The notes beneath the pieces were generated by a model that was given only the letters and a program-made list of their open reading frames with translations, was not told the origin of the DNA and made no database searches. A stretch of 64,000 nt of DNA from an uncultured Actinomycetes bacterium (GTDB lineage Bacteria; Actinomycetota; Thermoleophilia; RBG-16-64-13), in assembly GCA_963747275.1 (NCBI GenBank), contig CAVVEI010000012.1, positions 19,066 through 83,065 of the forward strand. The letters are read 5' to 3'. Positions 11,635 through 24,836 of this stretch are shown here, in pieces; within the stretch, counting starts at the first letter, position 1; each line of letters opens with the position of its first letter. A program made the position numbers and the translations under genes.

Positions 11635-12126
11635 ATGACCGACGACATGTCCGCGCTGATCCTGATAGTCGACGACGACTACGACTTTCTGGAGCTCAAC
11701 CGTATGGTGCTCGAGCGGGCAGGCTATCGCGTCACTACGGCAGCCGAACCCAAGCAGGCCCTCCTGCTCATGCAGCAGGAGCGGCCCGACCTGGTGATCA
11801 CCGACCTCATGATGACCACCCTTGATTCGGGCTTCTTGTTCGCGCGCGCCATCAAGGAGGACGAGCGCTACGCCGGAATACCCGTGATCATAGCCACCTC
11901 GGTCTCCAGCGCGCTCGGCCTGGACTTCAGACCCCGCACCGACGAAGACCGCGCCAACATGTTCGTGGACGCTTACTTTGACAAGCCGCTGGACCGGGCG
12001 CGGCTGCTGGCCACGGTCGCGGAGTTGCTCACGGCCTCGGGGCGCGCGGCCGCGCCGGGCAGCTCCGAAGCCGCCGCGCCGCGCGAAGCGCCGGCCGGCC
12101 CCGGCCGAGAGGCGCCGGAGGACTGA
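11635..12126 (+). CDS. stand-alone response-regulator receiver domain (no output domain)
   Basis: LILIVDDDYD, phospho-acceptor context DLVITDLMM, IIATSVSS, YFDKP. Ala/Pro-rich tail. The stop overlaps the start of the sensor kinase. Confidence 0.85.
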   Translation: MTDDMSALILIVDDDYDFLELNRMVLERAGYRVTTAAEPKQALLLMQQERPDLVITDLMMTTLDSGFLFARAIKEDERYAGIPVIIATSVSSALGLDFRPRTDEDRANMFVDAYFDKPLDRARLLATVAELLTASGRAAAPGSSEAAAPREAPAGPGREAPED

Positions 12127-14147
12127 TGCCCACCTGGGACAACCCCCTCATCACCATAGTCACCGACAAATGCCGCATGTGCTACGCCTGCGTGCGTGAG
12201 TGCCCGGCCAAGGCGATACAGGTGCAAGACGGGCAGGCCCAGGTAGTACAACCCCGCTGCATAGGCTGCGGCAACTGTCTGCGAGTGTGCACCCAGAACG
12301 CCAAACAGGTGCGCGACGACTCCGAGCGCATGTTCAACATCCTGGAGTCGGGCGCCAAGGTGGCCGCGCTGGTGGCACCCAGCTTTCCGGCTGAGTTCGA
12401 CGACGTCCGCCCAGGCACCCTGGTGGCCATGATCCGGTCGCTGGGGTTCGATTCGGTGCACGAGATATCGCTGGGCGCCGACCTGGTGGCTCAGGCCTAC
12501 AAGAAGCTTCTGGACGAGGACCCCGACGGCCGTTACATCGCCACTCCCTGCCCGGCGGTGGTCTCTTACGTGCGCAAGTATCATCCGCGACTGATCCCTA
12601 ACCTCGCCCCGCTGGTGTCGCCCATGGTCGCCATGGCGCGCGTGTTGCGGAGCGAGGTGGGCGAAGACCTGCAGGTGGTCTTCATAGGCCCCTGCGTGGC
12701 CAAGAAGCGGGCGTCTGTGGACTTCATCCATCACGAGTTCGAGGCGGTCCTCACCTTCGCCGAGCTGCGCGAGGTCTTCGCCGCCCGCGGCATGAAGCCT
12801 GAGGACTTTGCCGGTGACGACGACTTCGACCCTCCGTACGGTGGGCTCGGCATGGTCTTTCCGATCTCCGGAGGCCTGCTGCAGGCCGCCGACCTGAAGC
12901 AGGACCACCTCAGCGGTGATCTGGTCATCGCCGAAGGCAGAGACGAGTTCGTCTCCTCCATAAACGAGTTCGACGACGTGCGCACCGGCATCAGGCTGCT
13001 TGACGTGCTCGCCTGCCAAGGCTGCTATGCGGGGGCAGGTATGACCAGCGACGCGTCCCTGTTACAGCGCCGAGCGCTGGTCAGCGGCTACGCCAAGGAT
13101 AGGCTGGCAGACTACAGCGAAGCCGAGCTGGCCGAGGTGAACGGGGCGAGAGACAAGTACCGCAATATCGACATGTCGCGCGAGCACGAGCCAGACGAGC
13201 AGACGCTGGGGGGCGAGCCCACGCCCGAAGAACTGGACGAGATCTTGCAGCGCATGGGCAAGTCCAGACGCGAACACCTGCTCAACTGCGGCGCCTGCGG
13301 CTATGAGGGCTGTTTAGAGCATGCCCGCGCGGTCTATGCCGGACTTGCCGACTCAGAGATGTGTCTGCCACACTCCATCGAGCAGCTCCGCCAGGCCTAC
13401 GGCGAACTCGCAATCTCGCACCGCTCGCTCGAAGAGGCCAAAGAAGCCCTCGAGCGCTCGGGCAAACTGGCCAGCATGGGCCAACTGGCGGCCGGCATAG
13501 CCCACGAGGTCAACAACCCGCTGGGCACGCTGCTCTTACACGCCAACCTGCTGCTGGAGGAGTGCGACGAAAGCTCCGCCGACAAAGAAGACCTGGCGAC
13601 CATCGTCGACCAGGCCAACCGCTGCAAACGCATAATCTCCGGCCTGCTCAACTTCTCCCGCCAGAGCCGGGTACTCCGCCAACCCACCGACGTAGCCGAG
13701 CTGGTGGAGCGTACCATCCGCACCACCCCCTTCGCCGACAACGTCAAGGTCGTACTCGACAACAAGCTCGCCGACCCAGTCGCCGACCTCGACCCCGACC
13801 AGATGGTGCAGGTGTTCACCAACCTCTTCACCAACGCTCAGCAGGCCATGCCCGACGGGGGCACGCTTGCCATAGACTTGAGCGACGACCCCGCCACGGT
13901 CACCATCAAGGTCACCGATACCGGCGTGGGCATAGCGCCCGAACACATGCCCAACCTGTTCGACCCGTTCTTCAGCACCAAACCGCTGGGCATGGGCACC
14001 GGGTTGGGTCTCGCCGTGACCCACGGCATCGTCAAGATGCACAAGGGACACATAGTCGCTGAGTCCAACCACGACCCCGCTGCCGGCCCCACCTGGACCG
14101 CCCTCACCGTGACACTGCCGCGGCGCGAAGAGAAGGAGGGCGTCTAG
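12126..14147 (+). CDS. sensory [FeFe]-hydrogenase-like domain fused to histidine kinase (HydS-type sensor::HisKA-HATPase)
   Basis: CRMCYACVRECP and CIGCGNCLRVC. H-domain-like core: ATPCPAVVSYVRKYHP (degenerate L1), FIGPCVAKKRA (L2), LDVLACQGCYAG (L3). C-terminal Cys motif NCGACGYEGCLEHA..MCLP. Then SMGQLAAGIAHEVNNPL (H-box) and N/G1/G2 boxes (FTNAQQAM, DTGVGI, GTGLGLAV). Confidence 0.85.
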   Translation: MPTWDNPLITIVTDKCRMCYACVRECPAKAIQVQDGQAQVVQPRCIGCGNCLRVCTQNAKQVRDDSERMFNILESGAKVAALVAPSFPAEFDDVRPGTLVAMIRSLGFDSVHEISLGADLVAQAYKKLLDEDPDGRYIATPCPAVVSYVRKYHPRLIPNLAPLVSPMVAMARVLRSEVGEDLQVVFIGPCVAKKRASVDFIHHEFEAVLTFAELREVFAARGMKPEDFAGDDDFDPPYGGLGMVFPISGGLLQAADLKQDHLSGDLVIAEGRDEFVSSINEFDDVRTGIRLLDVLACQGCYAGAGMTSDASLLQRRALVSGYAKDRLADYSEAELAEVNGARDKYRNIDMSREHEPDEQTLGGEPTPEELDEILQRMGKSRREHLLNCGACGYEGCLEHARAVYAGLADSEMCLPHSIEQLRQAYGELAISHRSLEEAKEALERSGKLASMGQLAAGIAHEVNNPLGTLLLHANLLLEECDESSADKEDLATIVDQANRCKRIISGLLNFSRQSRVLRQPTDVAELVERTIRTTPFADNVKVVLDNKLADPVADLDPDQMVQVFTNLFTNAQQAMPDGGTLAIDLSDDPATVTIKVTDTGVGIAPEHMPNLFDPFFSTKPLGMGTGLGLAVTHGIVKMHKGHIVAESNHDPAAGPTWTALTVTLPRREEKEGV

Positions 14148-15305
14148 ATGCCCGGCCCTGCCCAAGTGCTACACGTGGCCATGGTGGACGACGAGGTCCC
14201 TCTCAGCTCGGCCGTCAAGCGCATCCTGGCCAAGTACAAGGCGCATGTCGATGCCGTCGACATCGACGTCACCTACACCTCGACGCAATTCGGCACCGCC
14301 GAAGACTTCCTGGCTAGCCTCAGCGAAGGCGCCGAGTTCGACCTGCTGCTGCTGGACCTCAAGCTGCCCGGCATGAACGGCCTGGACGTCCTCACCGAGT
14401 TGGGCAAAGGGGACCGCGAGCTTGTCACCGTGATGATCACCGCCTACGCCACCTTTGAGACGGCCGTGCAGGCCACCAAGCTGGGCGCCTTCGACTTCTT
14501 GCCCAAGCCCTTCTCGCCCGAGGAGCTCCGCTACTCGCTGCGCAAGGCCACCAATCAGCTCATAATCAGTCGCGAAGCGCGTCGCTTGGCCGAAGAGGAG
14601 CGGCAGGTGCGCTTCAACTTCATCTCCGTCTTGTCTCACGAACTCAAGGCGCCGCTCAACGCCATCGAGGGCTATCTCAAGCTACTGCAGGAGGACGAGC
14701 CGCCCGAACGCCTGCAGATGATCGACCGTAGCCTCATCCGCCTGGACGGCATGCGCAAGCTCATCTTCGACCTCCTGGACCTCACCCGCATAGAGTCGGG
14801 ACAGAAGGCGCGCCAGTTCGCCCCGGTGGACGTAGCCGCCGTCGCCCGCAAGACCATAGACCTGTTCGCCACCGAGGCCGCCGACCGCGACATCACCATC
14901 TTGCTCGACACGCCCCAGCCGGTCACCATGACGGCCGACGCCGGCGAGCTTGAGATCGTGTTCAACAACCTGGTCTCTAACGCGGTGAAGTACAACCGCG
15001 ACGGCGGCACCGTGACGGTCTCCCTTGACCGTCAAGAGGACACCGCACGCATCCAGGTGACCGACACCGGCATAGGCATGACCCCCGAGGAGAGTGCCAA
15101 GCTCTTCAACGAGTTCGTCCGCATAAAGAACGAAGATACGTTCAAGATCTTGGGGAGTGGCTTGGGCCTTTCGACCGTACGCAAGCTGGCTCATCTCTAC
15201 GGGGGCGAGGCCTCGGTCAAGAGCGAAAAGGGCGTGGGTAGCACCTTCACGGTGACGCTCAAGGACGCCGTGCAGCCCTCCGCGGAGACCGCAACTACGG
15301 CCTAG
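14148..15305 (+). CDS. hybrid histidine kinase (N-terminal receiver + HisKA + HATPase)
   Basis: SD AAGGAGGG. REC: VAMVDDE, LLLLDLKLPGMNG, MITAY, FLPKP. H-box FISVLSHELKAPLN. ATPase: NLVSNAVKYN, DTGIGM, GSGLGLS. Confidence 0.85.
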   Translation: MPGPAQVLHVAMVDDEVPLSSAVKRILAKYKAHVDAVDIDVTYTSTQFGTAEDFLASLSEGAEFDLLLLDLKLPGMNGLDVLTELGKGDRELVTVMITAYATFETAVQATKLGAFDFLPKPFSPEELRYSLRKATNQLIISREARRLAEEERQVRFNFISVLSHELKAPLNAIEGYLKLLQEDEPPERLQMIDRSLIRLDGMRKLIFDLLDLTRIESGQKARQFAPVDVAAVARKTIDLFATEAADRDITILLDTPQPVTMTADAGELEIVFNNLVSNAVKYNRDGGTVTVSLDRQEDTARIQVTDTGIGMTPEESAKLFNEFVRIKNEDTFKILGSGLGLSTVRKLAHLYGGEASVKSEKGVGSTFTVTLKDAVQPSAETATTA

Positions 15306-15330: not shown

Positions 15331-17196
15331 TCACTGCCCCTCGGCTGCCGGGCGGAACTGGGTCTCGTAGAGCTCGGCGTACGGACCACCAGCCTCTACC
15401 AACTCTTCGTGCGTGCCGCGCTCGACTACGCGTCCGTCGTCGATCACCAAGATCTGATCGGCGTCGCGCACCGTCGAGAGGCGGTGGGCTATCACCAACG
15501 AAGTCCGGCCTTCGAGGGCGGTCTTGAGGGCGGTCTGCAGCGCGACCTCTGACTCTGAGTCCAGGTGCGCGGTGGCTTCATCGAGTACGACCACATCCGG
15601 TGCCTTCAGCAGCAATCGAGCTATGGCCATGCGCTGTTTCTCCCCGCCAGACAGCCTGTATCCGCGATCGCCCACCACCGTGTCCAGACCATCGGCCAGG
15701 TCATCGACGAACGACAGTATCTGTGCGGCCGCGAGTGCCTCCCGCATCTCGGCCTCAGTGGCGCCGGGCTTCGCGTAGAGCAGGTTGTGGCGGATGCTTT
15801 CGTGGAACATGTGGGCATCCTGCGTGACCACCCCCACTATGGCCCGCAGCGAGTCGAGGGTGGCGTCGCGCACATCCACGCCAGATATCTCCACCGAGCC
15901 TTTGTCGACGTCATAGAGGCGCGGCACCAACTGGCTGATGGTCGTCTTGCCCGCCCCCGACGGACCGACCAAAGCCACCAGCTGCCCTGGTTCGGCTCTG
16001 AACGATATGTCTGAGAGCACCTCCTTGGGGATGCTCGCCTGGTTCGAAACCGCGACCGCCCCGAGCGAGGCCAGCGACACCTGCTCGGCAGTGGGGTAAG
16101 TGAACGCCACATGCCGGAACTCTACGGACGCGGGACCGCGGGGGATGGGAGCGGCAGAGGGCTTCTCGGTCACCATGGGCTCGATGTCCAACACCTCGAA
16201 CACCCGTTCGAACGAGACCAGGGCCATCATGATGTCTACGTGCATGTTGGAAAGAGCCGTAAGGGGACCGTACAGGCGACCCAGGTAGGCCGCAAGCGCC
16301 ACCAGAGTGCCCACGTCGAGTGCCCCACGTATGGTGAGCACACCGCCCCAACCATAGACCAGCGCCGTGGCCAAGGCCGCGGTGAGCGACAGGGCGACGA
16401 ACAGCACGCGCGTGGATACAGCTTGGATCACCCCTATCTCGCGTACCCGGCCCGCTCTGCCGGAGAAAGCCGTGTCTTCGTCGACCGGACGCCCGAACAG
16501 CTTGACCAGAAGCGCCCCCGCCACGTTGAAGCGCTCTACCATCATGTTGTTCATCTCGGCGTTCAGCTTGTACTCCTCGCGCACGATCTTCTGCAGACGC
16601 CGACCCAGCCAGCGCGCCGGAAACAGGAAGAGGGGCAACAGCGCCAGGGAGAGCAGCGTGATCTGCCAAGACAGCACGAACATGGCCGCCAGAACCAAGG
16701 TCACGCCGATGAGGTTGCCGATGACCGTCGAGAGGACCTCGGTGAAGGCCTGCTTGGCTCCCCTCACATCGACATTGAGGCGGCTGACCAAGGCCCCTGT
16801 TTGTGTGCGGGTGAAGAAGGCCAGCGGCATACGTTGCACGTGCGAGAAGATGCGGGTGCGCAGATCACAGACCAGACTCTCCCCCACGCGGGCCGAAACG
16901 TAGCGCTCGGCCAACGACACGGCTGCGTCGATTATGGCAAGCCCGGCCACGACCAAGGCCAAGACCACCACCAACCCGGTCCGGCGGTCGATTATGCCGC
17001 GGTTGATGATCTCCCTGTATATGAGAGGGTTGGCAGCCCCGATGGCGCCGCTGACGACCACCAGCACCACGAAGGTCGACAACAGGCCCTTGTACTGCGA
17101 CGCGAACCCAAGGATCCGGCGCACGGTCCCCTTGGCCAGCTTGCGACCGGCTACGTCTTCCCTCATAGACCGCACTACCTGCGCATGGGGTCTCAA
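15331..17196 (-). CDS. ABC exporter, fused permease/ATPase (MsbA/ABCB-like)
   Basis: Six-TM N-terminal half, then Walker A GPSGAGKTT, signature LSGGEKQR, Walker B VVVLDEATAHLD and H-loop IAHRLST. Confidence 0.85.
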   Translation of the reverse strand: MRPHAQVVRSMREDVAGRKLAKGTVRRILGFASQYKGLLSTFVVLVVVSGAIGAANPLIYREIINRGIIDRRTGLVVVLALVVAGLAIIDAAVSLAERYVSARVGESLVCDLRTRIFSHVQRMPLAFFTRTQTGALVSRLNVDVRGAKQAFTEVLSTVIGNLIGVTLVLAAMFVLSWQITLLSLALLPLFLFPARWLGRRLQKIVREEYKLNAEMNNMMVERFNVAGALLVKLFGRPVDEDTAFSGRAGRVREIGVIQAVSTRVLFVALSLTAALATALVYGWGGVLTIRGALDVGTLVALAAYLGRLYGPLTALSNMHVDIMMALVSFERVFEVLDIEPMVTEKPSAAPIPRGPASVEFRHVAFTYPTAEQVSLASLGAVAVSNQASIPKEVLSDISFRAEPGQLVALVGPSGAGKTTISQLVPRLYDVDKGSVEISGVDVRDATLDSLRAIVGVVTQDAHMFHESIRHNLLYAKPGATEAEMREALAAAQILSFVDDLADGLDTVVGDRGYRLSGGEKQRMAIARLLLKAPDVVVLDEATAHLDSESEVALQTALKTALEGRTSLVIAHRLSTVRDADQILVIDDGRVVERGTHEELVEAGGPYAELYETQFRPAAEGQ

Positions 17197-17401
17197 AATG
17201 TGTCCTTCTCTTCTCTGTTCATAACGCGGACCTTCTGTGCGCTTACGATATATCGTATTAGATTGTACCGCACGGTGTCGCGGCCGCCAAGACGCCCGGG
17301 GCAGTCAGCTCTCCTGCCCTTGATCGCTATCCACCCAAAGATTGATATCTACCCAGCGCTCCCCACGTGACAATGCGTACGAAGACCGGCCCGGAGGTAT
17401 A

Positions 17402-17704
17402 ATGAGCTCACCTAACGCACTACATGCAGTCGAGGTGCCCGCTATGCCCAGCATCGGTCTTCGCCATCTGAAAACCCATGCGTCCGAGATTCTGCGCGAC
17501 GTCGAAGAGAACGAGGCGAGGTACGTGGTCACCAGCAGAAACAAGCCTTTGGCCATCATCATCCCCTATTCCTCCCGCGAGGTGACGAAGCCCCTGAGCA
17601 AGGACGAGGCGTGGGAAACGTTCTTCGCAGCAGGGGAGCAGGTGAGGCAGGCGTGGCAGAGCCCCCTCACAGCCGTAGAGATCCTGCGCGATATGAGGCG
17701 GTAG
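17402..17704 (+). CDS. Phd/YefM-family antitoxin
   Basis: ATG 17402 with SD GGAGG. The pattern IGLRHLKTHASEILRDVEENEARYVVTSRNKPLAIIIP is typical of Phd/YefM. It ends 3 nt upstream of a PIN toxin gene. Confidence 0.7.
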   Translation: MSSPNALHAVEVPAMPSIGLRHLKTHASEILRDVEENEARYVVTSRNKPLAIIIPYSSREVTKPLSKDEAWETFFAAGEQVRQAWQSPLTAVEILRDMRR

Positions 17705-17707
17705 ACC

Positions 17708-18142
17708 ATGCTCGGCCGCGTCACGCTTGACGCGAGCGTAGCGGTTAGTGCCTTCAGTCCGACCGAGGCCAGCTCTGAGGACTGCTGTCGTCTCTTGGAG
17801 TTGTTGCGGCGCAACCAGACTGTGATCGTCGTACCCACCCTGATACGCCCCGAGTTAGCGGCAGCCATCCGCAGATCTACCGGAGACGCAAGCAAGGCCG
17901 AGGCTCTTGAGGAGGCCTTCGCCAAACTGCCCGGCGTGATCTTCCAGGACCTAGACGAGCGGATGGCAGCCGCAGCCGTCGAGATAGCCGCGGCTGCCGG
18001 GTTGAGAGGCGCCGATGCCGTGTACGCGGCCACCGCGCGCCACTTTGACGCGACACTAGTCACCCTCGATGAAGAGCAGAGAACGAGACTCCCTGCTGAC
18101 ATTGCCACCCTCTACCCTTCTGAGGTCCTAGAGGCCATGTAG
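17708..18142 (+). CDS. vapC: PIN-domain toxin VapC
   Basis: LDASVAV (first acidic residue), RPELAAAI, GADAVYAATA and LVTLDEE match the PIN acidic quartet layout. Paired with the upstream antitoxin. Confidence 0.7.
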   Translation: MLGRVTLDASVAVSAFSPTEASSEDCCRLLELLRRNQTVIVVPTLIRPELAAAIRRSTGDASKAEALEEAFAKLPGVIFQDLDERMAAAAVEIAAAAGLRGADAVYAATARHFDATLVTLDEEQRTRLPADIATLYPSEVLEAM

Positions 18143-18290
18143 CCGCGAATGGTGTTCGGGGCGGGACCTCTTGTACGCCCCACCCCCGGCCTCCACCTGA
18201 GATACTATTCGAATTGTCCGGTGGCCTCGCCCCGCACGAACGCGCGGGTCCGCCCCGGGATGAGCGCTGTTCTACCGAGGGAGTGCCACA

Positions 18291-18677
18291 GTGGTAAAGA
18301 TCCTTATCGTCGATGATGACCCGGACATGGTAGAAGCCAGCCGAATAGTCCTCGAGAGAGACGGCTACTCGGTGGAACACGCCTCCAACGTCGAAGAGGG
18401 CCTGCAGAAGCTCGCAGAGGCCAAGCCCGACCTGCTGATCCTGGACGTGATGATGGAAGAGCCCGACGACGGCCTGCGCTTCGCCAGGCAGGCGAGGCGT
18501 TTGGGCAACGATCTGCCGATACTCATGCTCACCAGCGTCAACCGCGCCCTTGGCATCCAGATAGGCAAAGACGAAGAGATGGTCCCGGTGGACGAGTTCG
18601 TGGAGAAGCCGGTCGACCCCGCCACCCTCTCAGCCAAAGTCAAGGAGTTGCTCGCCATGAGAGGAGCTGCCTCATGA
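18291..18677 (+). CDS. stand-alone response-regulator receiver domain, first gene of second hydrogenase operon
   Basis: GTG start after GAGGGAG. KILIVDDDPD, DLLILDVMM, LMLTSVNRALG, FVEKP. Paralogous to the receiver at 11635. The stop overlaps the next ATG (ATGA). Confidence 0.85.
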   Translation: MVKILIVDDDPDMVEASRIVLERDGYSVEHASNVEEGLQKLAEAKPDLLILDVMMEEPDDGLRFARQARRLGNDLPILMLTSVNRALGIQIGKDEEMVPVDEFVEKPVDPATLSAKVKELLAMRGAAS

Positions 18678-20374
18678 CTACCGCAGAACTGAAGCAGCTC
18701 CGTGGCGAGATAGTCGGCATCGCGGAGCACACCAACTTCAGCCGCGCCTCTCTGGTGCCCATCCTGCGCTTTATCAAGGAGAAGTACCGAGGCATCGACT
18801 CTGAGGCCATGCAGATCGCCGCCGACGTCTTGCGCATCGCCCCCGTAGAGGTCGACGCAGTCTCCACCTTCTACTCCTTCCTGAGCCCTGAAGTGCAAGG
18901 TCAGTTCGTGTTCCGGCTCTGCCAGACCTACTCCTGCGAGCTCGCGGGCAAGCAAGAGGTCGTGGCTCAGCTGGAGAAAGACTTGGGCATCAAGGTCGGC
19001 GAGACCTCGGCCGACGGAGCCTTCAGCCTGGAGTTCGCGAACTGTATGGGCATGTGCGACCAAGGGCCGGCTATGCTGGTGAACGACGAGCTCTACGCCA
19101 AACTGACGCCCAACAAGGTGCACGAGATAGTGGCCCACTACCGCAAGCGCCTTACCGACGACAAAGGCGCCACCCAGGCCGGCGCCACGCTCACCGCGGC
19201 GCTGCCCGAGGCCGCCAACCAGCTCACTTTTGCGGGGATCACCCCCGACGACGGGCTCAAGAAGGCGCTCGCCATGGGCCGCGGCGACTTGGTCGACCTG
19301 GTGCGCGACTCCAAACTCAAGGGGCGTGGCGGCGCGGGCTTTCCCACCGGCATCAAGTGGGACCTGGCGGCCGCCGAGAAGCGGCGCCCCAAGTACATCA
19401 TGTGTAACGCCGACGAGGGCGAGCCCGGCACCTTCAAAGACCGGCTGATACTCAGCCAGTACGCCGACCTGGTGATGGAGGGCATGACCATCGGCGCGCG
19501 GGCCATCGGCGCAGCGCTCGGGCTCATATACCTCCGCGCCGAGTACGCCTACCTGCGGCCACACCTGCTGGAGGTCATCGCGCGGCGCCGCGAGGCCGGC
19601 CTTCTGGGTCAGAACATCGGCGGCATCGAGGACTTCAACTTCAACATAATGGTGGCCATGGGCGCCGGCGCGTACGTGTGCGGCGAAGAGACGGCCCTTA
19701 TCGAATCCCTTGAGGGCTTCCGCGGCGAGCCGCGCAACCGCCCGCCCTTCCCGGTGGTCTCGGGCTTTCTCAACCGGCCCTCGGTGGTCAACAATGTCGA
19801 GACCCTGGCCTGGGTGCCCTGCATCCTCTCCAAGGGCGTGGACTGGTTCAAGAGCGTGGGCACCGACGCCTCCAAGGGCCACAAGCTGTTCAGCATCTCC
19901 GGCGATTGCGAGCGCCCCGGCGTGTATGAGTTCCCCTTCGGCATCACGGTAGCCGAGTTGCTGAAGACCGTAGGCGGCGAGAACGCCAAGGCCGTGCAGA
20001 TAGGCGGCGCCTCCGGGCGCTGCGTACCGCGTAAGGACTTCGAACGCCGCTTGGCCTTCGAAGACATCGCCACCGGCGGCTCGCTGATAGTCATCGGCCC
20101 TGCCCGCGACATGCTCGATCTGGCCCGCAACCTGATGGAGTTCTTCGTCGACGAGTCGTGCGGCCAGTGCACACCCTGCCGGGTGGGCAACCATAAGCTG
20201 CTGGAAGGGGTAGAGATGCTCCAAGCCGGCACCTGCACCGACGAGTACCTAGATGAATTGAGGGGTCTCGCCAACACCATGCAGGTCGCCTCCAAGTGCG
20301 GCCTGGGACAGGCCAGTTCGGTGGCGCTACTTTCTATACTCGAGCACTTCGGAGATGAGATCCATGCCCGATAA
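18674..20374 (+). CDS. NuoE-NuoF fusion flavoprotein (diaphorase subunit of second [FeFe]-hydrogenase)
   Basis: NuoE part: SLVPILRFIKEKY, STFYSF, FRLCQTYSCEL, ANCMGMCDQGPA. NuoF part: GRGGAGFPTGIKW, IMCNADEGEPGTF, ESCGQCTPCRVG, KCGLGQ. No C-terminal ferredoxin or GltD module. Confidence 0.85.
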   Translation: MTTAELKQLRGEIVGIAEHTNFSRASLVPILRFIKEKYRGIDSEAMQIAADVLRIAPVEVDAVSTFYSFLSPEVQGQFVFRLCQTYSCELAGKQEVVAQLEKDLGIKVGETSADGAFSLEFANCMGMCDQGPAMLVNDELYAKLTPNKVHEIVAHYRKRLTDDKGATQAGATLTAALPEAANQLTFAGITPDDGLKKALAMGRGDLVDLVRDSKLKGRGGAGFPTGIKWDLAAAEKRRPKYIMCNADEGEPGTFKDRLILSQYADLVMEGMTIGARAIGAALGLIYLRAEYAYLRPHLLEVIARRREAGLLGQNIGGIEDFNFNIMVAMGAGAYVCGEETALIESLEGFRGEPRNRPPFPVVSGFLNRPSVVNNVETLAWVPCILSKGVDWFKSVGTDASKGHKLFSISGDCERPGVYEFPFGITVAELLKTVGGENAKAVQIGGASGRCVPRKDFERRLAFEDIATGGSLIVIGPARDMLDLARNLMEFFVDESCGQCTPCRVGNHKLLEGVEMLQAGTCTDEYLDELRGLANTMQVASKCGLGQASSVALLSILEHFGDEIHAR

Positions 20375-22292
20375 GTCGACCCTCCCAACCAGACGAGCTC
20401 CGCTCAGCCAGCTCTTTCAGCCCGACCTGGAGCCCGAGGCTCCGGCGGCGGACGCAATCGGGGCCACTATCCCGGTCACCATAGACGGCATCGAGACCAA
20501 GGTGCCTATGGGCACCACCATCCTCGAGGCAGCCAAGGCCCTGGGCGTGCGCATACCCACTCTCTGCTACCACCCGGACCTCGAAGTGGCCGGCATCTGC
20601 CGCATCTGCGTGGTCGAGGTGGAGGGGCAGCGGAACCTGCAGGCCGCGTGCGCCTACCCGATCACGGCACCGCTCAAGGTGAACACCTACTCCAAGGCGG
20701 TGCGCATCGCCCGCCGGCATGTTCTCGACCTGCTGCTCAGTGAGCACTGCGGCGACTGCTACGCCTGCATCCGCAACGGTCACTGCGAACTCCAGGCCCT
20801 GGCCGAAGAATACGGAGTGGACAAGTTCCGGTTCGGGCACGAGGAGGTCCCCGTTCCGGTGGACGAATCGAGCTACTCGGTCGTCCGCGACATGAACAAG
20901 TGCATCCGCTGCCGCCGTTGCGTACGCACCTGCATCGACATGCAGGAGGTGGGCGTGCTGGAGGCCACCAACCGCTCCAACCGGGTGGACGTCTCTACCT
21001 TCAAGCACATCCCCTTGGCCGAGGCCGTCTGCATCAACTGCGGACAGTGCATAAACCGCTGCCCCACCGCTGCGCTCTACGCGCATCCGGCATTGGCACC
21101 CGTCTGGCAGGCCTTGGACGATCCGACCAAGCATGTGGTGGTACAGACTGCCCCGTCGCCGCGGGCAGCCATGGGCGAGATGTTCGGCCTAGAGCCAGGC
21201 ACCACCGTCACCTACCAGATGAACACGGCCCTCAGGCGCATGGGCTTCGACCACGTGTTCGACACCAACTTCACCGCCGACCTCACCATAATCGAGGAGG
21301 GTACCGAGCTCCTGCTGAGGCTGCACAAGGCCTTGGTCGAAGGTGACACGAAGGCGGCCCTGCCCCAGTTCACCAGCTGCTCACCGGGTTGGGTGAAGTA
21401 TTGCGAGCACTTCTATCCCGAGTACATCCCCAACCTCTCCACGGCCAAGTCGCCACAACAGATGTTCGGGGCGCTCATCAAGACCTTCTACGCGCAGAAG
21501 ATGGGTGTAGACCCCAAGGACATAGTCAGCGTGGCCATCATGCCCTGCTCGGCCAAGAAGTTCGAGTGCAACCGCCCCGAGATGAACGCCTCGGGCTATC
21601 AGGACGTCGACTTCGGCCTGACCACCCGCGAGCTGGGCGCCATGTTCCGGCAGGCCGGCCTCGATGTGCCGTCGCTGCCCCGCTCTGACTTCGACGACCC
21701 GTTCGGCGGAGCCACCGGCTCCGGCCTCATCTTCGGAGCAACGGGCGGGGTCATGGAGTCGGCTCTGCGCACGGTCATCGAGTTGGTGACCGGCCAGAAG
21801 GTGGAGAACCTCTATGAACACGGCGACATCTTGCCCGTCCGCGGTTTCGACGGCGTCCGTTACGCGGAGCTCAAGATCCAAGAGGTCGGTCCGGTACCCG
21901 AGCTACTCGCGCACCTGGTGCCCAACTGGAACTGGCTCAAGGGAGCCACCCTCAAGGTGGCCGTGGCCCACGGCACCGCCAACGCCCACAAGGTGATGGA
22001 AGACATCAAGGCCGGCGGCAAGTTCGCGGAGTGCCACTTCATAGAGTTCATGGCCTGCCCGGGCGGATGCCTGGGCGGTGGCGGCCAGCCCATGCCCACC
22101 AATGCAGAGATCCGGGCGGCGAGGGCCAAGGCCATCTACGGCGAAGACCGGCAGATGACCGTGCGCAAGTCGTACGAGAACCCGGCGGTGCTGCGCGTCT
22201 ACAAGGAGTTCCTCACCGACGGACCCTGCGGGCACAAGAGCCACCAACTGCTGCACACGCACTACACCAACCGCGGCAAACACATCTCGTAG
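20355..22292 (+). CDS. hydA: [FeFe]-hydrogenase catalytic subunit, second paralogue
   Basis: Alternative start at ATG 20364 (GGAG upstream). CYHPDLEVAGICRIC, CIRCRRCVRTC, CINCGQCINRCP. L1 FTSCSPGW (non-canonical), L2 IMPCSAKKFE, L3 EFMACPGGCLGGGGQP. C-terminal small-subunit-like tail. Confidence 0.9.
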   Translation: MRSMPDKSTLPTRRAPLSQLFQPDLEPEAPAADAIGATIPVTIDGIETKVPMGTTILEAAKALGVRIPTLCYHPDLEVAGICRICVVEVEGQRNLQAACAYPITAPLKVNTYSKAVRIARRHVLDLLLSEHCGDCYACIRNGHCELQALAEEYGVDKFRFGHEEVPVPVDESSYSVVRDMNKCIRCRRCVRTCIDMQEVGVLEATNRSNRVDVSTFKHIPLAEAVCINCGQCINRCPTAALYAHPALAPVWQALDDPTKHVVVQTAPSPRAAMGEMFGLEPGTTVTYQMNTALRRMGFDHVFDTNFTADLTIIEEGTELLLRLHKALVEGDTKAALPQFTSCSPGWVKYCEHFYPEYIPNLSTAKSPQQMFGALIKTFYAQKMGVDPKDIVSVAIMPCSAKKFECNRPEMNASGYQDVDFGLTTRELGAMFRQAGLDVPSLPRSDFDDPFGGATGSGLIFGATGGVMESALRTVIELVTGQKVENLYEHGDILPVRGFDGVRYAELKIQEVGPVPELLAHLVPNWNWLKGATLKVAVAHGTANAHKVMEDIKAGGKFAECHFIEFMACPGGCLGGGGQPMPTNAEIRAARAKAIYGEDRQMTVRKSYENPAVLRVYKEFLTDGPCGHKSHQLLHTHYTNRGKHIS

Positions 22293-22295
22293 TGT

Positions 22296-22443
22296 AAGGG
22301 GGCAGGCTGCCCGCTCGAAACCGCGTTCGAGTGGGTCAGCCCACCCTCTGCGCTCGAAACCGCGTTCGAGTACTCGCGACCATCCGAGCCCAGAGGGTGG
22401 GCTGACACTTTCTAGGGGCAATCTCGCAAGTTGCCTGCCCCCT
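22296..22443. repeat. nested inverted/direct repeat element between convergent genes (possible bidirectional terminator or miniature repeat element)
   Basis: Outer arms aGGGGGCAGGC (22297-22307) and GCCTGCCCCCt (22433-22443). Perfect 16-bp arms GTCAGCCCACCCTCTG (22335-22350) and CAGAGGGTGGGCTGAC (22391-22406). A 21-nt direct repeat CGCTCGAAACCGCGTTCGAGT occurs at 22312 and 22351. Each copy is itself a hairpin (CTCGAA-accgcg-TTCGAG). Confidence 0.6.
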
Positions 22444-22492
22444 CACCACTCTTCGCAATCGCCATGCTCCGCGCAGCTGCTCGGCGAAGCCC

Positions 22493-23074
22493 CTATTCCT
22501 TGGCCGGGGCCTCGTCCGCCGCCTGGGCTTGCTCTGTGAGTTGAGGCTGGTCAGTCGTCGCAGCCTCGGGCTTCGCGCTCTCTTTGGCTTCGGAGACCCG
22601 CGGTGCGTCAGCGATTCTAACCTCGGGCGCAGGCTGCGCGGGCTTCACTTCCATCGCGGGAGTCCCGATAGTCGGCACCTGCCTCAAGGCCCTTAGCTTG
22701 CGGTCGCTGGTGATCGCCCGGCCCGCCAGGGTGGCTATCAGGAAGAAGCCCACCACACCTATCGATATCCAGAGGTAGTCAGACTGAAAGGGGGTCAAGA
22801 GCGGCGTCCTCAGACTGGAAAGGCCGGGGTCCGCCGCAAAGAGCCCCCTGACCACGCCCAGACCGATGAGCAAGAGCAGTGACTGCCAATAGCGCCTGAT
22901 CAGCGGCCAGACGAAGCCCAGTAGACCTGCGCCTATGACCGTCACCAGGTTGAGCACCGGCTTCGCGCTGTCCATATCCGTGCCCACATCGTGGGTCATA
23001 TAGAAGACCGTGGCCACGAAGGCCCCGACCACCACAAAGAGAATCACTCTGCATAGCCAGACAAGAAGACGCAT
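22493..23074 (-). CDS. hypothetical integral membrane protein (about 4 TM) with acidic/Ala-Pro-rich tail
   Basis: Strong SD GGAGGGAG. Hydrophobic segments VILFVVVGAFVATVFY, LVTVIGAGLLGFVW, SLLLLIGLGVV and ISIGVVGFFLIATLAG. No recognisable family. Confidence 0.6.
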   Translation of the reverse strand: MRLLVWLCRVILFVVVGAFVATVFYMTHDVGTDMDSAKPVLNLVTVIGAGLLGFVWPLIRRYWQSLLLLIGLGVVRGLFAADPGLSSLRTPLLTPFQSDYLWISIGVVGFFLIATLAGRAITSDRKLRALRQVPTIGTPAMEVKPAQPAPEVRIADAPRVSEAKESAKPEAATTDQPQLTEQAQAADEAPAKE

Positions 23075-23258
23075 ATAGCTCCCTCCTCAGAGAGTGTCGC
23101 GCTTACCCACTCCGGACGCCGGCCGCCGATAACGGACCGGCCACCAAGGGTTGTTCCCGAGTTGAGTCTCTCACAATCGCCCCCTCTGGGCTCAAGTCCG
23201 CTGTTAACAGGGCCGATACTCTCGCTATCGACAAAGTACGCGCGTCTGGGCAAGGGGT

Positions 23259-24836
23259 ATGGCTGACAAGATCGTTCTACTAGATGGGGGCCGCACCCAC
23301 GACATCGTGCTCTTGGAGGGTACCGACCCTTTCTTGGTGCGCCTCCTTGGGTCGGCTCCTTCACGTCCGGCCGTGACGTTTCTTCGCACCATGCAGAACG
23401 CCGAGGGCAGGCAATGCGTGGGGGTCTTCATAGGCGACCAACATGTCGGCTACCTCTCCGAGGAAACCGCCCACGGGGTGTCGGCCACTATCCAGGCCTG
23501 TGAGCTCGATGGCGCGGTTGCGAGGGCACGAGGCGACCTGATAGCCGCCTGGGACCGACCGGGCAAGGTGAACCTCAGAGTGAACCTGGCCGATCCTCAG
23601 AATCTGCTCTGCGTACCTGAATCCGAGTCGGAGAACCGGCCGATCGATCTGCTGCAGGCGGATTCAACAGAGAGACGGGGCCCTGCCCCCGGAGCAGCGG
23701 CCCTGCTCTTTGCCTCGTTGGATGACGTGCCAGACACCTGGGTCCCGTCCCTGGGCGCCCTCCCTTCTGACTCATCGCAGGACGCCTCGGTGCTTATGAG
23801 GGCCCCGACGACTCTCGAGGCGGCCTCCGAACCCGGAGTGCATTCTGGTTGGACCGAAGAATATCCGGAGTGGCCTTCTCCCAAGCCCAAGTCCATGACG
23901 GATGCGGAGCCGGCGACTTCACCGTCCCCACAGTCGCTCTTGGCCACCCGCGGGGTATGGTTGGGAGCTACTCCCACCCCTGCCCAAGCGCAGGGCACGG
24001 GTTGGCTGAGCTCGGCAGGAGAGGCATCGTCGGGCTCGAGCCTGGGCTCGACCGCCGCGGCGCCCCCAACGCCGGCCAATGGAGCCGCCCCATCTTGGCA
24101 AGACATGGCGGAGCGGACCCGCGCAGACCAGGGCGGCAGGGTCGACCCAGAAGGGGAGATAGTCGCCGCCTGGACTTCTTCGCCCCCCGCGCCGCAGTCG
24201 ACGCCATCGGTGCAGCCAAACGCGCGACCGAAGACGGCCAGGGCGTGGATGCTACCGGTGCTGGCCGTGCTGGGGGTCGTGGCGATCGCACTGGTGGTCT
24301 GGAAGTTCGAGTTTGCGCCCAAGACCTACACCAACGATACTTACGGCTACTCTTTCTCATATCCGGGGCGCTGGGAGATGGCAGACGAGACCGGCGTTTT
24401 CGCGGGCTTCACCGACCAGGCGTCGGGGGTCTCGCTACTCTCGATGTCGGCGGCCGGATATGGGATAGGCGATTCCAGGAAGCCCGACGAATTGGCAGCG
24501 GTGGGCGTGTTCATGTTCACACCCGGGGCGTTGGGTGATGAGTCGCAGTTGGGGACGACGATGCAGACCAACTACAGCCAAGCAGAACTCGCGGGCTCCG
24601 GAGTCACGATTATCGAGCCCGTAACCGCCGTCACTATCGGCGGCCTCCCTGGGTATCAGACGAGCCTCTCCATGGTCGCCGGCACTCTCTCTCTCAGTGC
24701 CACGCTTTGCATGTTGGTCGGCTCGGACTCAACCTACATGCTAATCGCTATGTCGACCTCCGACGAGTGGGCTGGAGCCCAGAAGGGCTTCGACCGCTTC
24801 TTCGACAGCTTCGAGCCTGGCGACGCAAGCGGTTAG
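23259..24836 (+). CDS. hypothetical single-pass membrane protein: N-terminal HIRAN-like region, Pro/Ser/Ala-rich linker, TM, extracytoplasmic PsbP/DcrB-like domain
   Basis: SD AAGGGG. N-terminus: VGVFIGDQHVGYLSEETAHGVSATIQ. TM: WMLPVLAVLGVVAIALVVW. C-terminus: YTNDTYGYSFSYPGRWEM. Domain calls are tentative. Confidence 0.55.
   Translation: MADKIVLLDGGRTHDIVLLEGTDPFLVRLLGSAPSRPAVTFLRTMQNAEGRQCVGVFIGDQHVGYLSEETAHGVSATIQACELDGAVARARGDLIAAWDRPGKVNLRVNLADPQNLLCVPESESENRPIDLLQADSTERRGPAPGAAALLFASLDDVPDTWVPSLGALPSDSSQDASVLMRAPTTLEAASEPGVHSGWTEEYPEWPSPKPKSMTDAEPATSPSPQSLLATRGVWLGATPTPAQAQGTGWLSSAGEASSGSSLGSTAAAPPTPANGAAPSWQDMAERTRADQGGRVDPEGEIVAAWTSSPPAPQSTPSVQPNARPKTARAWMLPVLAVLGVVAIALVVWKFEFAPKTYTNDTYGYSFSYPGRWEMADETGVFAGFTDQASGVSLLSMSAAGYGIGDSRKPDELAAVGVFMFTPGALGDESQLGTTMQTNYSQAELAGSGVTIIEPVTAVTIGGLPGYQTSLSMVAGTLSLSATLCMLVGSDSTYMLIAMSTSDEWAGAQKGFDRFFDSFEPGDASG

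What the first reader, a model, noticed from the sequence alone, without database searches (positions are those of the whole stretch)
18291..20374. Output-less receiver domain translationally coupled (ATGA) to the diaphorase subunit of the second hydrogenase
The 128-aa receiver at 18291-18677 is the first cistron of the NuoE/F-HydA operon, and its stop overlaps the next ATG. It is a clear paralogue of the receiver that precedes the sensor kinase at 11635. Both share DDD, the D-acceptor context, an unusual TSV(S/N)xALG insertion and a (F/V)xKPxD ending.

A single-domain receiver co-expressed stoichiometrically with enzyme subunits suggests post-translational control of the hydrogenase through protein-protein contact. 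This would replace transcriptional control and could link the H2 sensor to enzyme activity.
Basis: inference. Interest (0 to 1): 0.6.

Follow-up and report, generated by a model that had tools for sequence, protein, structure and literature searches.

The report
Receiver protein heading NADH-hydrogenase operon
A small phosphorylation-switch protein with no output domain is always encoded directly in front of the NADH-handling subunit of a hydrogen- or formate-producing enzyme, here next to a candidate hydrogen-sensor kinase, so the enzyme may be controlled directly rather than through gene expression; direct contact is not yet shown.

Summary
A 128-aa stand-alone receiver (REC2, 18291-18677, GTG start, GAGGGAG ribosome site) overlaps the NuoE/F fusion gene by ATGA, and HydA2 follows. 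REC2 is 41% identical to the receiver at 11635.

The adjacency is strongly conserved:
- REC2 is followed by NuoE/F in 80 of 80 fetched Thermoleophilia loci and after 86 of 94 REC2 hits in 401 genomes of the class.
- The junction is -7 to +15 nt in 79 of 81 cases.
- The upstream gap is always at least 52 nt and has taken insertions repeatedly.
- The pair stays together when detached from the sensor-kinase cluster, when HydA2 is absent and a formate dehydrogenase gene lies nearby, and in low-GC metagenome contigs with only 45-58% identical receivers.

The phospho-acceptor residues are invariant. Helix 4 is replaced by a highly conserved, low-confidence loop.

The partner enzyme matches the non-bifurcating NADH-dependent HydAB type.

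My best reading (about 0.45) is a phosphorylation-switched regulatory partner of the NuoEF module. It is probably fed by the adjacent HydS-kinase relay.

Direct contact is unproven. A read-through REC2-NuoE fold gave pTM 0.43. Apparent fusion proteins were frameshift artefacts. I found no description in the literature I could search.

The parts
18201..18208 (+). Promoter-like GATACTAT (-10-type) element, 90 nt upstream of the REC2 start
   Evidence: Found 88-105 nt upstream of the start in 11 genus-level loci, including formate-dehydrogenase-type and detached ones. This is a consensus-type inference only. The sigma-70 scan found nothing here.
18277..18283 (+). Ribosome-binding site GAGGGAG, 7 nt before the GTG
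   Evidence: Read from the sequence. The AGGGAG core is invariant in the upstream alignment.
18291..18677 (+). REC2: 128-aa single-domain response-regulator receiver. D8/D9/D10, D52, T81, F103 and K106 are intact. Helix 4 is replaced by a conserved loop (residues 82-101).
18674..18677 (+). ATGA overlap between the REC2 stop and the NuoE/F start
   Evidence: The junction is -7 to +15 nt in 79 of 81 loci.
18674..20374 (+). NuoE-NuoF fusion, a HydB-type diaphorase subunit. It has GGASG rather than GGPSG and no extra Fe-S domains.
   Evidence: Criteria taken from PMC7311640.
20355..22292 (+). HydA2, catalytic [FeFe]-hydrogenase subunit with a NuoG-like N-terminus
11635..12126 (+). REC1, the paralogous stand-alone receiver. 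Its stop overlaps the start of the HydS-kinase gene.
12126..14147 (+). HydS-type sensory [FeFe]-hydrogenase domain fused to HisKA-HATPase. This is the candidate upstream kinase.
   Evidence: It co-occurs with REC2 across the class.
14148..15305 (+). REC-HisKA-HATPase hybrid kinase. In 61 of 80 related loci it lies directly upstream of REC2.
15331..18142 (.). Lineage-specific insertion between the kinase operon and REC2: an ABC transporter (-, 15331-17196), a Phd antitoxin (17342-17704) and a PIN toxin (17708-18142).
   Evidence: Absent in most relatives.

Best explanation
REC2 is a phosphorylatable single-domain response regulator. It is a dedicated accessory component of a NuoE/NuoF-based, NADH-linked enzyme module.

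In this genome the module is a non-bifurcating HydAB-type [FeFe] hydrogenase. In some relatives it is probably an NAD-linked formate dehydrogenase.

REC2 is made from the same transcript as the enzyme, and its translation is coupled to that of the diaphorase subunit.

I propose these steps:
- REC2 is phosphorylated on D52 by the neighbouring relay (HydS-kinase, REC-kinase, or both).
- Phosphorylation changes how the conserved loop that replaces helix 4 binds the NuoEF-HydA2 complex.
- This gates NADH-to-H2 electron flow according to ambient H2.

The control makes physiological sense. An NADH-only hydrogenase can make H2 only at very low H2 pressure (below about 60 Pa). Above that it would run backwards.

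Shown here:
- gene structure;
- conserved synteny;
- intact phospho-acceptor chemistry;
- the remodelled helix-4 region (in a predicted model);
- co-occurrence with HydS-kinase.

Inferred:
- who phosphorylates REC2;
- that REC2 binds the enzyme;
- the effect on activity.
For: **Synteny**
- REC2 is followed by NuoE/F in 17 of 17 and 80 of 80 fetched loci.
- In 401 genomes of the class, 86 of 94 REC2 hits are followed by NuoE/F, and 87 of 97 NuoEF2-type hits are preceded by REC2. Most exceptions lie at contig ends.

**Operon structure**
- The junction is -7 to +15 nt in 79 of 81 loci, and 45 of them overlap.
- The gap from the REC-kinase gene to REC2 is 52-550 nt. Six loci have insertions of 1.2-2.8 kb there.
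- No insertion was seen between REC2 and NuoE.

**The pair outlasts its surroundings**
- It survives in 12 loci with no kinase cluster upstream. In four of these the cluster lies inverted downstream.
- It survives in 6 loci with no HydA2, where a selenocysteine FdhA gene lies nearby. In the one locus I annotated, a FocA gene is there too.
- It survives in metagenome contigs whose receivers are 45-58% identical. Some have GC 0.44-0.49 against 0.65 here, and two have no HydS-kinase within the contig.

**Sequence and model**
- D8/D9/D10, D52, T81, F103 and K106 are invariant. REC2-specific invariant residues cluster in the beta3-alpha3 loop and the helix-4 segment.
- That segment is predicted as low-confidence coil in an otherwise confident receiver fold (pLDDT 86.6, pTM 0.83).
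- REC2 is about as conserved as NuoEF2 and more conserved than REC1 or HydS-kinase.

**Regulatory rather than structural**
- G043 and G024 have NuoE-NuoF-HydA2 with neither REC2 nor a HydS-kinase orthologue.
- Recombinant S. aciditrophicus HydAB is active when only hydAB, the maturases and a ferredoxin are supplied (PMC7311640).

**Enzyme type and rationale**
- NuoE-NuoF fusion, no extra Fe-S domains, GGASG instead of GGPSG.
- The limit of about 60 Pa H2 for non-bifurcating enzymes comes from PMC7311640.

**Precedent**
- A single-domain regulator that activates an enzyme by direct contact is described in PMC12802240 (title and abstract only).
Against: - No interaction is shown.
- AlphaFold2 on a natural read-through REC2-NuoE chain folded both domains but gave pTM 0.43, so there was no confident docking. 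This is a weak negative. NuoF and HydA were absent, only 7 rows were paired, the linker was short, and no contact map is returned.
- All apparent REC-NuoE or REC-NuoEF fusion proteins in the protein database were frameshift artefacts.
- Conserved synteny and translational coupling would also fit a sink or feedback role.
- The phospho-donor is unknown. In one related family a GAF histidine kinase follows HydA2. Two distant contigs show no HydS-kinase near the module.
Confidence: 0.45

Rival explanations
1. Phosphate sink or feedback buffer. REC2 does not touch the enzyme. Because it is co-expressed with the enzyme, its amount tracks operon expression. It drains phosphoryl groups from the HydS-kinase/REC-kinase relay and so damps or times a signal whose real output is another, unidentified regulator.
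For: - REC2 and REC1 are close paralogues with similar helix-1 sequences, so they could share a kinase.
- The relay has no visible output domain.
- Sink receivers are an established kind, for example in the Sinorhizobium chemotaxis system (my own knowledge).
- The co-fold showed no docking on NuoE.
Against: - A sink needs only the kinase-facing surface. Yet the most distinctive invariant part of REC2 is the remodelled helix-4 segment on the usual output face.
- REC2 stays attached to NuoE when the kinase cluster is elsewhere or not on the contig.
- REC1, which sits inside the kinase operon, is the more natural sink.
- No transcriptional output regulator that the sink would modulate was found in the cluster.
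Confidence: 0.2
2. Kinase modulator or phospho-shuttle. Like DivK or MrrA, REC2 acts back on histidine kinases (the REC-kinase, or the GAF kinase of related genomes) or passes phosphate on to a distant output. Its place in the enzyme operon only ensures co-expression.
For: - Single-domain regulators that work on kinases or as hubs are described (PMC5964349).
- Several kinases lie nearby: HydS-kinase and REC-kinase here, and a GAF kinase after HydA2 in family f3.
- A second, parallel HydS-kinase/REC/REC-PAS-kinase set lies on contig C7 of this genome.
Against: - The partner that never changes is NuoE/F, not any kinase.
- No Hpt domain or further acceptor is in the cluster.
Confidence: 0.15
3. 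Role independent of phosphorylation. REC2 is an assembly or stability factor, or a structural subunit of the NuoEF module, built on the flavodoxin-like fold. The Asp pocket is kept for metal binding or for fold reasons.
For: Translational coupling to NuoE and module-wide conservation. No cognate kinase is proven.
Against: - All five phosphorylation-chemistry residues, plus the aromatic switch residue, are invariant across receivers down to about 45% identity.
- REC2 co-occurs with the HydS-kinase orthologue in the class.
- Homologous enzymes exist and work without it (PMC7311640).
Confidence: 0.07

Closest known systems
Single-domain response regulators that act by protein contact: CheY-FliM, CpdR-ClpXP, DivK-DivL (my own knowledge), and the regulator that activates a phosphoglycosyl transferase (PMC12802240)
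   Same: Stand-alone receiver with an intact phospho-acceptor pocket and no output domain. The proposed output is phosphorylation-dependent binding to a target protein. In the 2025 case the target is an enzyme.
   Different: The target proposed here is the NADH-oxidising NuoEF module of a hydrogenase or formate dehydrogenase, and no binding is shown. REC2 is encoded as the first, translationally coupled cistron of the target operon. Helix 4 is replaced by a conserved loop.
[quoted passage not shown]
   Same: The beta subunit is a NuoE-like + NuoF-like fusion of about 570-585 aa without extra Fe-S domains and without GGPSG. The alpha subunit is a NuoG-like-N-terminus HydA.
   Different: That paper does not mention a receiver protein with those enzymes ('receiver' 0 occurrences and 'regulator' 1). 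I could not inspect their gene neighbourhoods. Activity of the enzyme here is untested.
Putative sensory [FeFe] hydrogenases, HydDB group C1 'histidine kinase-linked' and TmHydS (PMC5037454, PMC10055695)
   Same: The neighbouring gene at 12126-14147 is an H-cluster domain fused to HisKA-HATPase. REC2 co-occurs with its orthologues.
   Different: The output of this class is unknown. REC2 as a terminal acceptor acting on an enzyme is a proposal, not a described feature.
'FAT GUY' receivers (SdrG, Sma0114) with a degenerate helix 4 (my own knowledge)
   Same: Single-domain receivers in which helix 4 is disordered or missing.
   Different: The defining PFxFATGY motif is absent. REC2 reads VPVDEFVEKP at that place. 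The kinase partners are HisKA-type, not HWE/HisKA2.

Membership tests
Response-regulator receiver domain (CheY-like, PF00072) | Profile match above the curated threshold | tested here: met
   78.3 bits against a cut-off of 30.2, residues 4-117.
Response-regulator receiver domain (CheY-like, PF00072) | Acidic pocket, phospho-acceptor Asp, and conserved Thr/Ser, Lys and aromatic switch residue | tested here: met
   D8/D9/D10, D52, T81, K106 and F103 are invariant or nearly so in 81 orthologues and in distant members.
Response-regulator receiver domain (CheY-like, PF00072) | Complete (beta-alpha)5 fold | tested here: inconclusive
   AlphaFold2 gives pLDDT 86.6 and pTM 0.83. Foldseek TM-scores are 0.8-0.87 against PhoP, MicA and VicR receivers. 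Residues 82-101, where helix 4 should be, are coil with pLDDT 54-61. An orthologue model shows one short turn at 83-87. These are predictions only.
Single-domain (stand-alone) response regulator | No output domain on the polypeptide | tested here: met
   128 aa, with only PF00072. Orthologues are 123-134 aa.
OmpR/PhoB-family DNA-binding regulator (the name JGI gives orthologues) | C-terminal winged-helix Trans_reg_C domain | tested here: not met
   The protein ends 6 residues after helix 5. There is no PF00486 match, and the NCBIfam hits cover the receiver part only and fall far below their cut-offs.
'FAT GUY' receivers (SdrG/Sma0114) | PFxFATGY motif at beta5 | tested here: not met
   The sequence there is VPVDEFVEKPVDP.
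Non-bifurcating NADH-dependent [FeFe] hydrogenase, HydAB type (the partner enzyme) | Beta subunit is a NuoE-like + NuoF-like fusion without additional Fe-S domains | tested here: met
   2Fe-2S_thioredx 17-156, Complex1_51K 210-382, SLBB, NADH_4Fe-4S 482-565 of 566, and nothing further. Compared with PMC7311640.
Non-bifurcating NADH-dependent [FeFe] hydrogenase, HydAB type (the partner enzyme) | GGPSG of bifurcating beta subunits absent from the SLBB region | tested here: met
   NuoEF2 has GGASG at 444. The other NuoF in the window has GGPSG at 401.
Non-bifurcating NADH-dependent [FeFe] hydrogenase, HydAB type (the partner enzyme) | Thr/Ser and Lys/Ser/Ala at T. maritima HydB positions 232 and 234, and Tyr at 367 | not tested
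   I did not align NuoEF2 to the T. maritima HydB sequence.
Non-bifurcating NADH-dependent [FeFe] hydrogenase, HydAB type (the partner enzyme) | Ferredoxin-independent H2 production from NADH | not testable with these tools
   Needs an enzyme assay.
Two-component pathway of a group C1 sensory hydrogenase | REC2 receives phosphate from the HydS-kinase or the REC-kinase | not testable with these tools
   Only co-occurrence (83 of 91 REC2-positive genomes score a HydS-kinase orthologue, and the search scored just 2 candidates per genome) and adjacency in 61 of 80 loci.

The most novel reading that the evidence does not exclude
REC2 belongs to a receiver clade with DDDPD at the start, a remodelled helix 4 and PV(D/E)xF..KPV.P near the end. 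Members of this clade would be phosphorylation-operated regulatory subunits of NuoEF-type diaphorase modules.

In this organism an [FeFe]-hydrogenase-like H2 sensor kinase would switch a thermodynamically fragile NADH-dependent hydrogenase, or a formate dehydrogenase in relatives, on or off within seconds by His-Asp phosphotransfer. No transcription would be involved.

If true, this would be:
- the first defined output of a sensory [FeFe] hydrogenase;
- the first two-component system known to gate a redox enzyme complex directly.
Probability: 0.35. Interest if true: 0.85.

Novelty: new variant of a known kind. Interest (0 to 1): 0.62.

Why it matters
Sensory [FeFe] hydrogenases have been catalogued for years, but nobody knows what they control. 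Here the last protein of such a relay is welded genetically to the NADH-input subunit of an enzyme whose direction depends on H2 pressure.

That gives a concrete, cheap experiment. Take three or four soluble proteins and follow the E. coli expression route already published for the homologous HydAB.

If the contact is real, two-component signalling would extend to direct control of redox enzymes. It would also show how fermenters and syntrophs avoid running NADH-linked hydrogenases and formate dehydrogenases backwards.

If the contact is not real, the module is still a robust genomic marker: a receiver gene followed by nuoE, nuoF and hydA or fdhA. Annotation pipelines currently mislabel that receiver as an 'OmpR family DNA-binding regulator'.

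Tried and rejected
1. **Search for fusion proteins.** I ran two database searches with REC2 joined to NuoEF2 or to NuoE. The only proteins carrying both PF00072 and PF01257 or PF01512 were P0125, P0171, P0186 and P0437. P0126 joins a kinase to REC2. All are singletons with out-of-frame, Arg/Pro-rich stretches, so they are frameshift artefacts of noisy assemblies. G398, which showed a 710-aa open frame, is likewise riddled with frame shifts. I rejected all of them as evidence.

2. **Co-fold.** I used loci where the stop and the nuoE start are in frame (L067 and six others, with the stop read as Gly). Unpaired REC2 and NuoE rows were added to the alignment. The result was pTM 0.43, so no confident docking. 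This is not decisive.

3. **Leader RNA structure.** RNAalifold found no consensus structure between the promoter-like motif and the start codon.

4. **Rex operator.** No match to TTGTGAAN6TTCACAA, with up to 3 mismatches, occurs anywhere in the window.

5. **Promoter and terminator scan.** The sigma-70/terminator scan of 17200-23400 found nothing above chance.

7. **Literature.** Six full-text searches found no paper that describes a receiver gene in front of nuoE/nuoF-hydA.

8. **GAF kinase.** The GAF histidine kinase that follows HydA2 in family f3 has no orthologue in this 80%-complete genome.
Full report
**1. What is in the window**

ORF 18291-18677 on the + strand begins with GTG, the first possible start after a stop. 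GAGGGAG lies 7 nt upstream.

The ORF encodes 128 residues that match only the receiver profile PF00072 (78.3 bits, cut-off 30.2).

Its TGA shares the bases ATGA with the start of a 566-aa protein. That protein is a NuoE-like [2Fe-2S] domain (17-156) fused to a NuoF-like FMN/NADH/[4Fe-4S] module (210-565).

The HydA2 gene (20355-22292) overlaps the end of that gene. It has a NuoG-like N-terminus.

Upstream on the same strand lie:
- a first hydrogenase operon: NuoE 5735, ferredoxin 6234, NuoF 6679, GltD-like 8306, HydA1 9811;
- REC1 (11635-12126);
- a HydS-type H-cluster domain fused to HisKA-HATPase (12126-14147);
- a REC-HisKA-HATPase protein (14148-15305).

An ABC transporter on the opposite strand and a Phd/PIN pair follow (15331-18142).

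REC2 and REC1 are 41% identical (E 3e-27). Each is the other's closest relative in the genome.

**2. Organism**

The window lies in a 2.08-Mb, 80%-complete metagenome-assembled genome.

Close relatives are uncultured Thermoleophilia (Actinomycetota) from soils, sediments, peat and anaerobic digesters (record titles).

**3. Is the adjacency conserved?**

Yes, to an unusual degree.

*Fetched loci*
- In 17 loci from the genus and from other genera of the family, REC2 is always followed by NuoE/F.
- The same holds in all 80 loci returned by a search of one genome per species.

*Survey of 401 genomes of the class*
- 86 of 94 REC2-type hits have a NuoEF2-type gene directly downstream.
- 87 of 97 NuoEF2-type hits have REC2 upstream.
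- Most exceptions sit at contig ends or in frameshifted assemblies.

*The two sides of REC2 differ*
- The distance from the REC2 stop to the nuoE start is -7 to +15 nt in 79 of 81 loci, and 45 of these overlap.
- The gap between the REC-kinase gene and REC2 is never below 52 nt and is typically 130-550 nt.
- That gap has taken insertions in six of the 80 loci (1.2-2.8 kb; a VapBC pair in L051), and in the window itself.
- A GATACTAT element lies 88-105 nt before the start codon in 11 genus-level loci, including the window (18201-18208).

REC2 therefore behaves as the first cistron of the enzyme operon, not as the last gene of the kinase operon.

**4. The pair outlasts its surroundings**

- Twelve of the 80 loci have no kinase cluster upstream. 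In four of them it lies inverted downstream of HydA2. REC2-NuoE/F is intact in all twelve.
- Six loci lack HydA2. A formate dehydrogenase gene lies nearby in each. In the locus I annotated (L028), a selenocysteine-type formate dehydrogenase with a NuoG-like N-terminus and a FocA channel lie divergently upstream.
- Representatives of more distant receiver clusters (45-58% identity) again precede NuoE, NuoF and HydA. They have 4-nt overlaps or gaps of a few bases.
- Some of these contigs have GC 0.44-0.49 against 0.65 here. Two have no HydS-kinase within the contig.
- An Anaerolineae locus carries three receivers of the same clade (40-47% identity) around NuoE-ferredoxin-NuoF-FdhA-FocA.

The constant partner is the NuoE/F diaphorase module, not the hydrogenase as such.

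**5. Link to the H2-sensor kinase**

- Of the 91 REC2-positive genomes, 83 also score a HydS-kinase orthologue. The search scored only two candidates per genome, so apparent absences are soft.
- The three genomes with a HydS-kinase orthologue but no REC2 hit are fragmented at the relevant place.
- Two genomes of the same family (G043, G024) have NuoE-NuoF-HydA2 at 62% identity. They have neither REC2 nor a HydS-kinase orthologue.

So the enzyme can exist without the receiver. In this class, the receiver comes with the sensor kinase.

Family f3 adds a GAF-HisKA-HATPase kinase about 170 nt after HydA2. It has no orthologue in this genome. HydS-kinase may therefore not be the only input.

**6. 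The protein**

- D8, D9, D10, D52, T81, F103 and K106 are invariant across 81 orthologues. They are kept in the distant members.
- Residues invariant in REC2 but different in REC1 cluster in two places. One is the loop after the phospho-Asp (E56 E57 P58 D59 D60 G61). The other is S82-V100 (N84, A86, I91, D94, E96, V98, P99, V100).
- AlphaFold2 gives a confident receiver fold (pLDDT 86.6, pTM 0.83). Residues 82-101, where helix 4 should be, are coil with pLDDT 54-61. An orthologue model shows one short turn there.
- Foldseek finds ordinary OmpR/PhoB-type receiver domains as the nearest structures (TM 0.8-0.87).

The segment is both highly conserved and poorly predicted, and it lies on the usual output face. 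That is what one expects of a partner-binding element. This is an inference.

It is not an insertion in length.

**7. The enzyme**

NuoEF2 is a NuoE-NuoF fusion with no extra Fe-S domains. It has GGASG where bifurcating beta subunits have GGPSG. The other NuoF of the window has GGPSG.

These are criteria of Losey et al. [quoted passage not shown] Their S. aciditrophicus HydB is the same kind of fusion (PMC7311640).

That paper reports two further points:
- Such enzymes make H2 from NADH only at H2 pressures below about 60 Pa.
- The recombinant enzyme is active without any receiver protein.

The window thus holds a bifurcating-type and a non-bifurcating-type hydrogenase operon with a candidate H2 sensor between them.

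**8. Tests of direct contact**

Database searches for natural REC-NuoE or REC-NuoEF fusions returned only frameshift artefacts.

I folded a single chain made from loci where the REC2 stop and the nuoE start are in frame. Both domains folded, but pTM was 0.43.

This does not support a REC2-NuoE contact. It cannot exclude one with NuoF, HydA or a phosphorylated form.

**9. Reading**

The most economical explanation is a phosphorylation-switched accessory partner of the NuoEF module. In this organism it would be fed by the adjacent HydS-kinase/REC-kinase relay. I put this at about 0.45.

The rivals:
- a phosphate sink or feedback buffer (0.2);
- a modulator of kinases or a phospho-shuttle (0.15);
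- a structural role independent of phosphorylation (0.07).

Chance adjacency is excluded by the comparative data.

**10. Literature and earlier notes**

Six full-text searches found no description of this module. A single-domain regulator that activates an enzyme by contact was described in 2025 (PMC12802240).

Earlier AI notes of this scan report three things:
- the same REC-first operon in related genomes;
- a similar receiver clade around NuoEF in Anaerolineae;
- receiver domains fused to NuoE/HydC in Omnitrophota.

I reproduced the first two in part. I could not check the fusions and did not count them as evidence.

Noticed in passing
window 15331-18142: An ABC transporter (opposite strand) and a Phd/PIN (VapBC-type) toxin-antitoxin pair sit between the REC-kinase gene and REC2. 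Most relatives have only a 52-550 nt gap here. One relative (L051/L022) has the VapBC pair alone. This gap looks like a recurrent insertion site.
   Followed up: partly
window 18201-18208: GATACTAT lies about 90 nt upstream of the REC2 start, at the same distance in 11 genus-level loci. In several loci a CTCTATCC-like element precedes it. It is a candidate promoter. The roughly 80-nt leader has local inverted repeats, but RNAalifold found no consensus structure.
   Followed up: partly
window 6679-8562 compared with 18674-20374: The two NuoF-type subunits differ at the Losey 2020 diagnostic site: GGPSG in operon 1 (bifurcating type) and GGASG in operon 2 (non-bifurcating type). One organism therefore carries both enzyme types with the sensor kinase between them.
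   Followed up: partly
own genome, contig C7 (L132:818-8289, minus strand): A second, parallel system: a 447-aa HydA, a HydS-kinase paralogue (670 aa, 42% identical), a small receiver, a REC-PAS-HisKA-HATPase protein, a 128-aa ORF with no Pfam match, and an MCP-signalling-domain protein.
   Followed up: partly
L126:10203-11567 (and about 35 other family f3 loci): A cytoplasmic GAF-HisKA-HATPase kinase (454 aa) follows HydA2 by about 170 nt, then a radical-SAM gene. It may be a second phospho-donor for the receiver in that family. No orthologue was found in the window's genome.
   Followed up: partly
L028:1761-4499 (minus strand), also L056, L057, L059, L063, L066, L068: In six related loci the REC1-HydS-kinase-REC-kinase-REC2-NuoEF string, or REC2-NuoEF alone, lacks HydA2 and has an FdhA gene nearby. 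In L028 the FdhA gene is split by an in-frame TGA (probable selenocysteine). A Crp-like cNMP-binding protein and FocA lie next to it.
   Followed up: partly
L130:6252-16927 (Anaerolineae MAG): Three receivers of the REC1/REC2 clade surround NuoE-ferredoxin-NuoF-FdhA-FocA. AsnC-type and DRTGG genes are also present. One receiver is the C-terminus of an odd 381-aa protein with FAD_binding_6 and HycI fragments, which may be a gene-decay product.
   Followed up: partly
protein database entries P0125, P0126, P0171, P0186, P0437; genomes G398, G003: Many public assemblies of these Thermoleophilia carry frameshifts that create false fusion proteins (REC-NuoE, kinase-REC). Domain-architecture surveys of this module need care.
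   Followed up: yes
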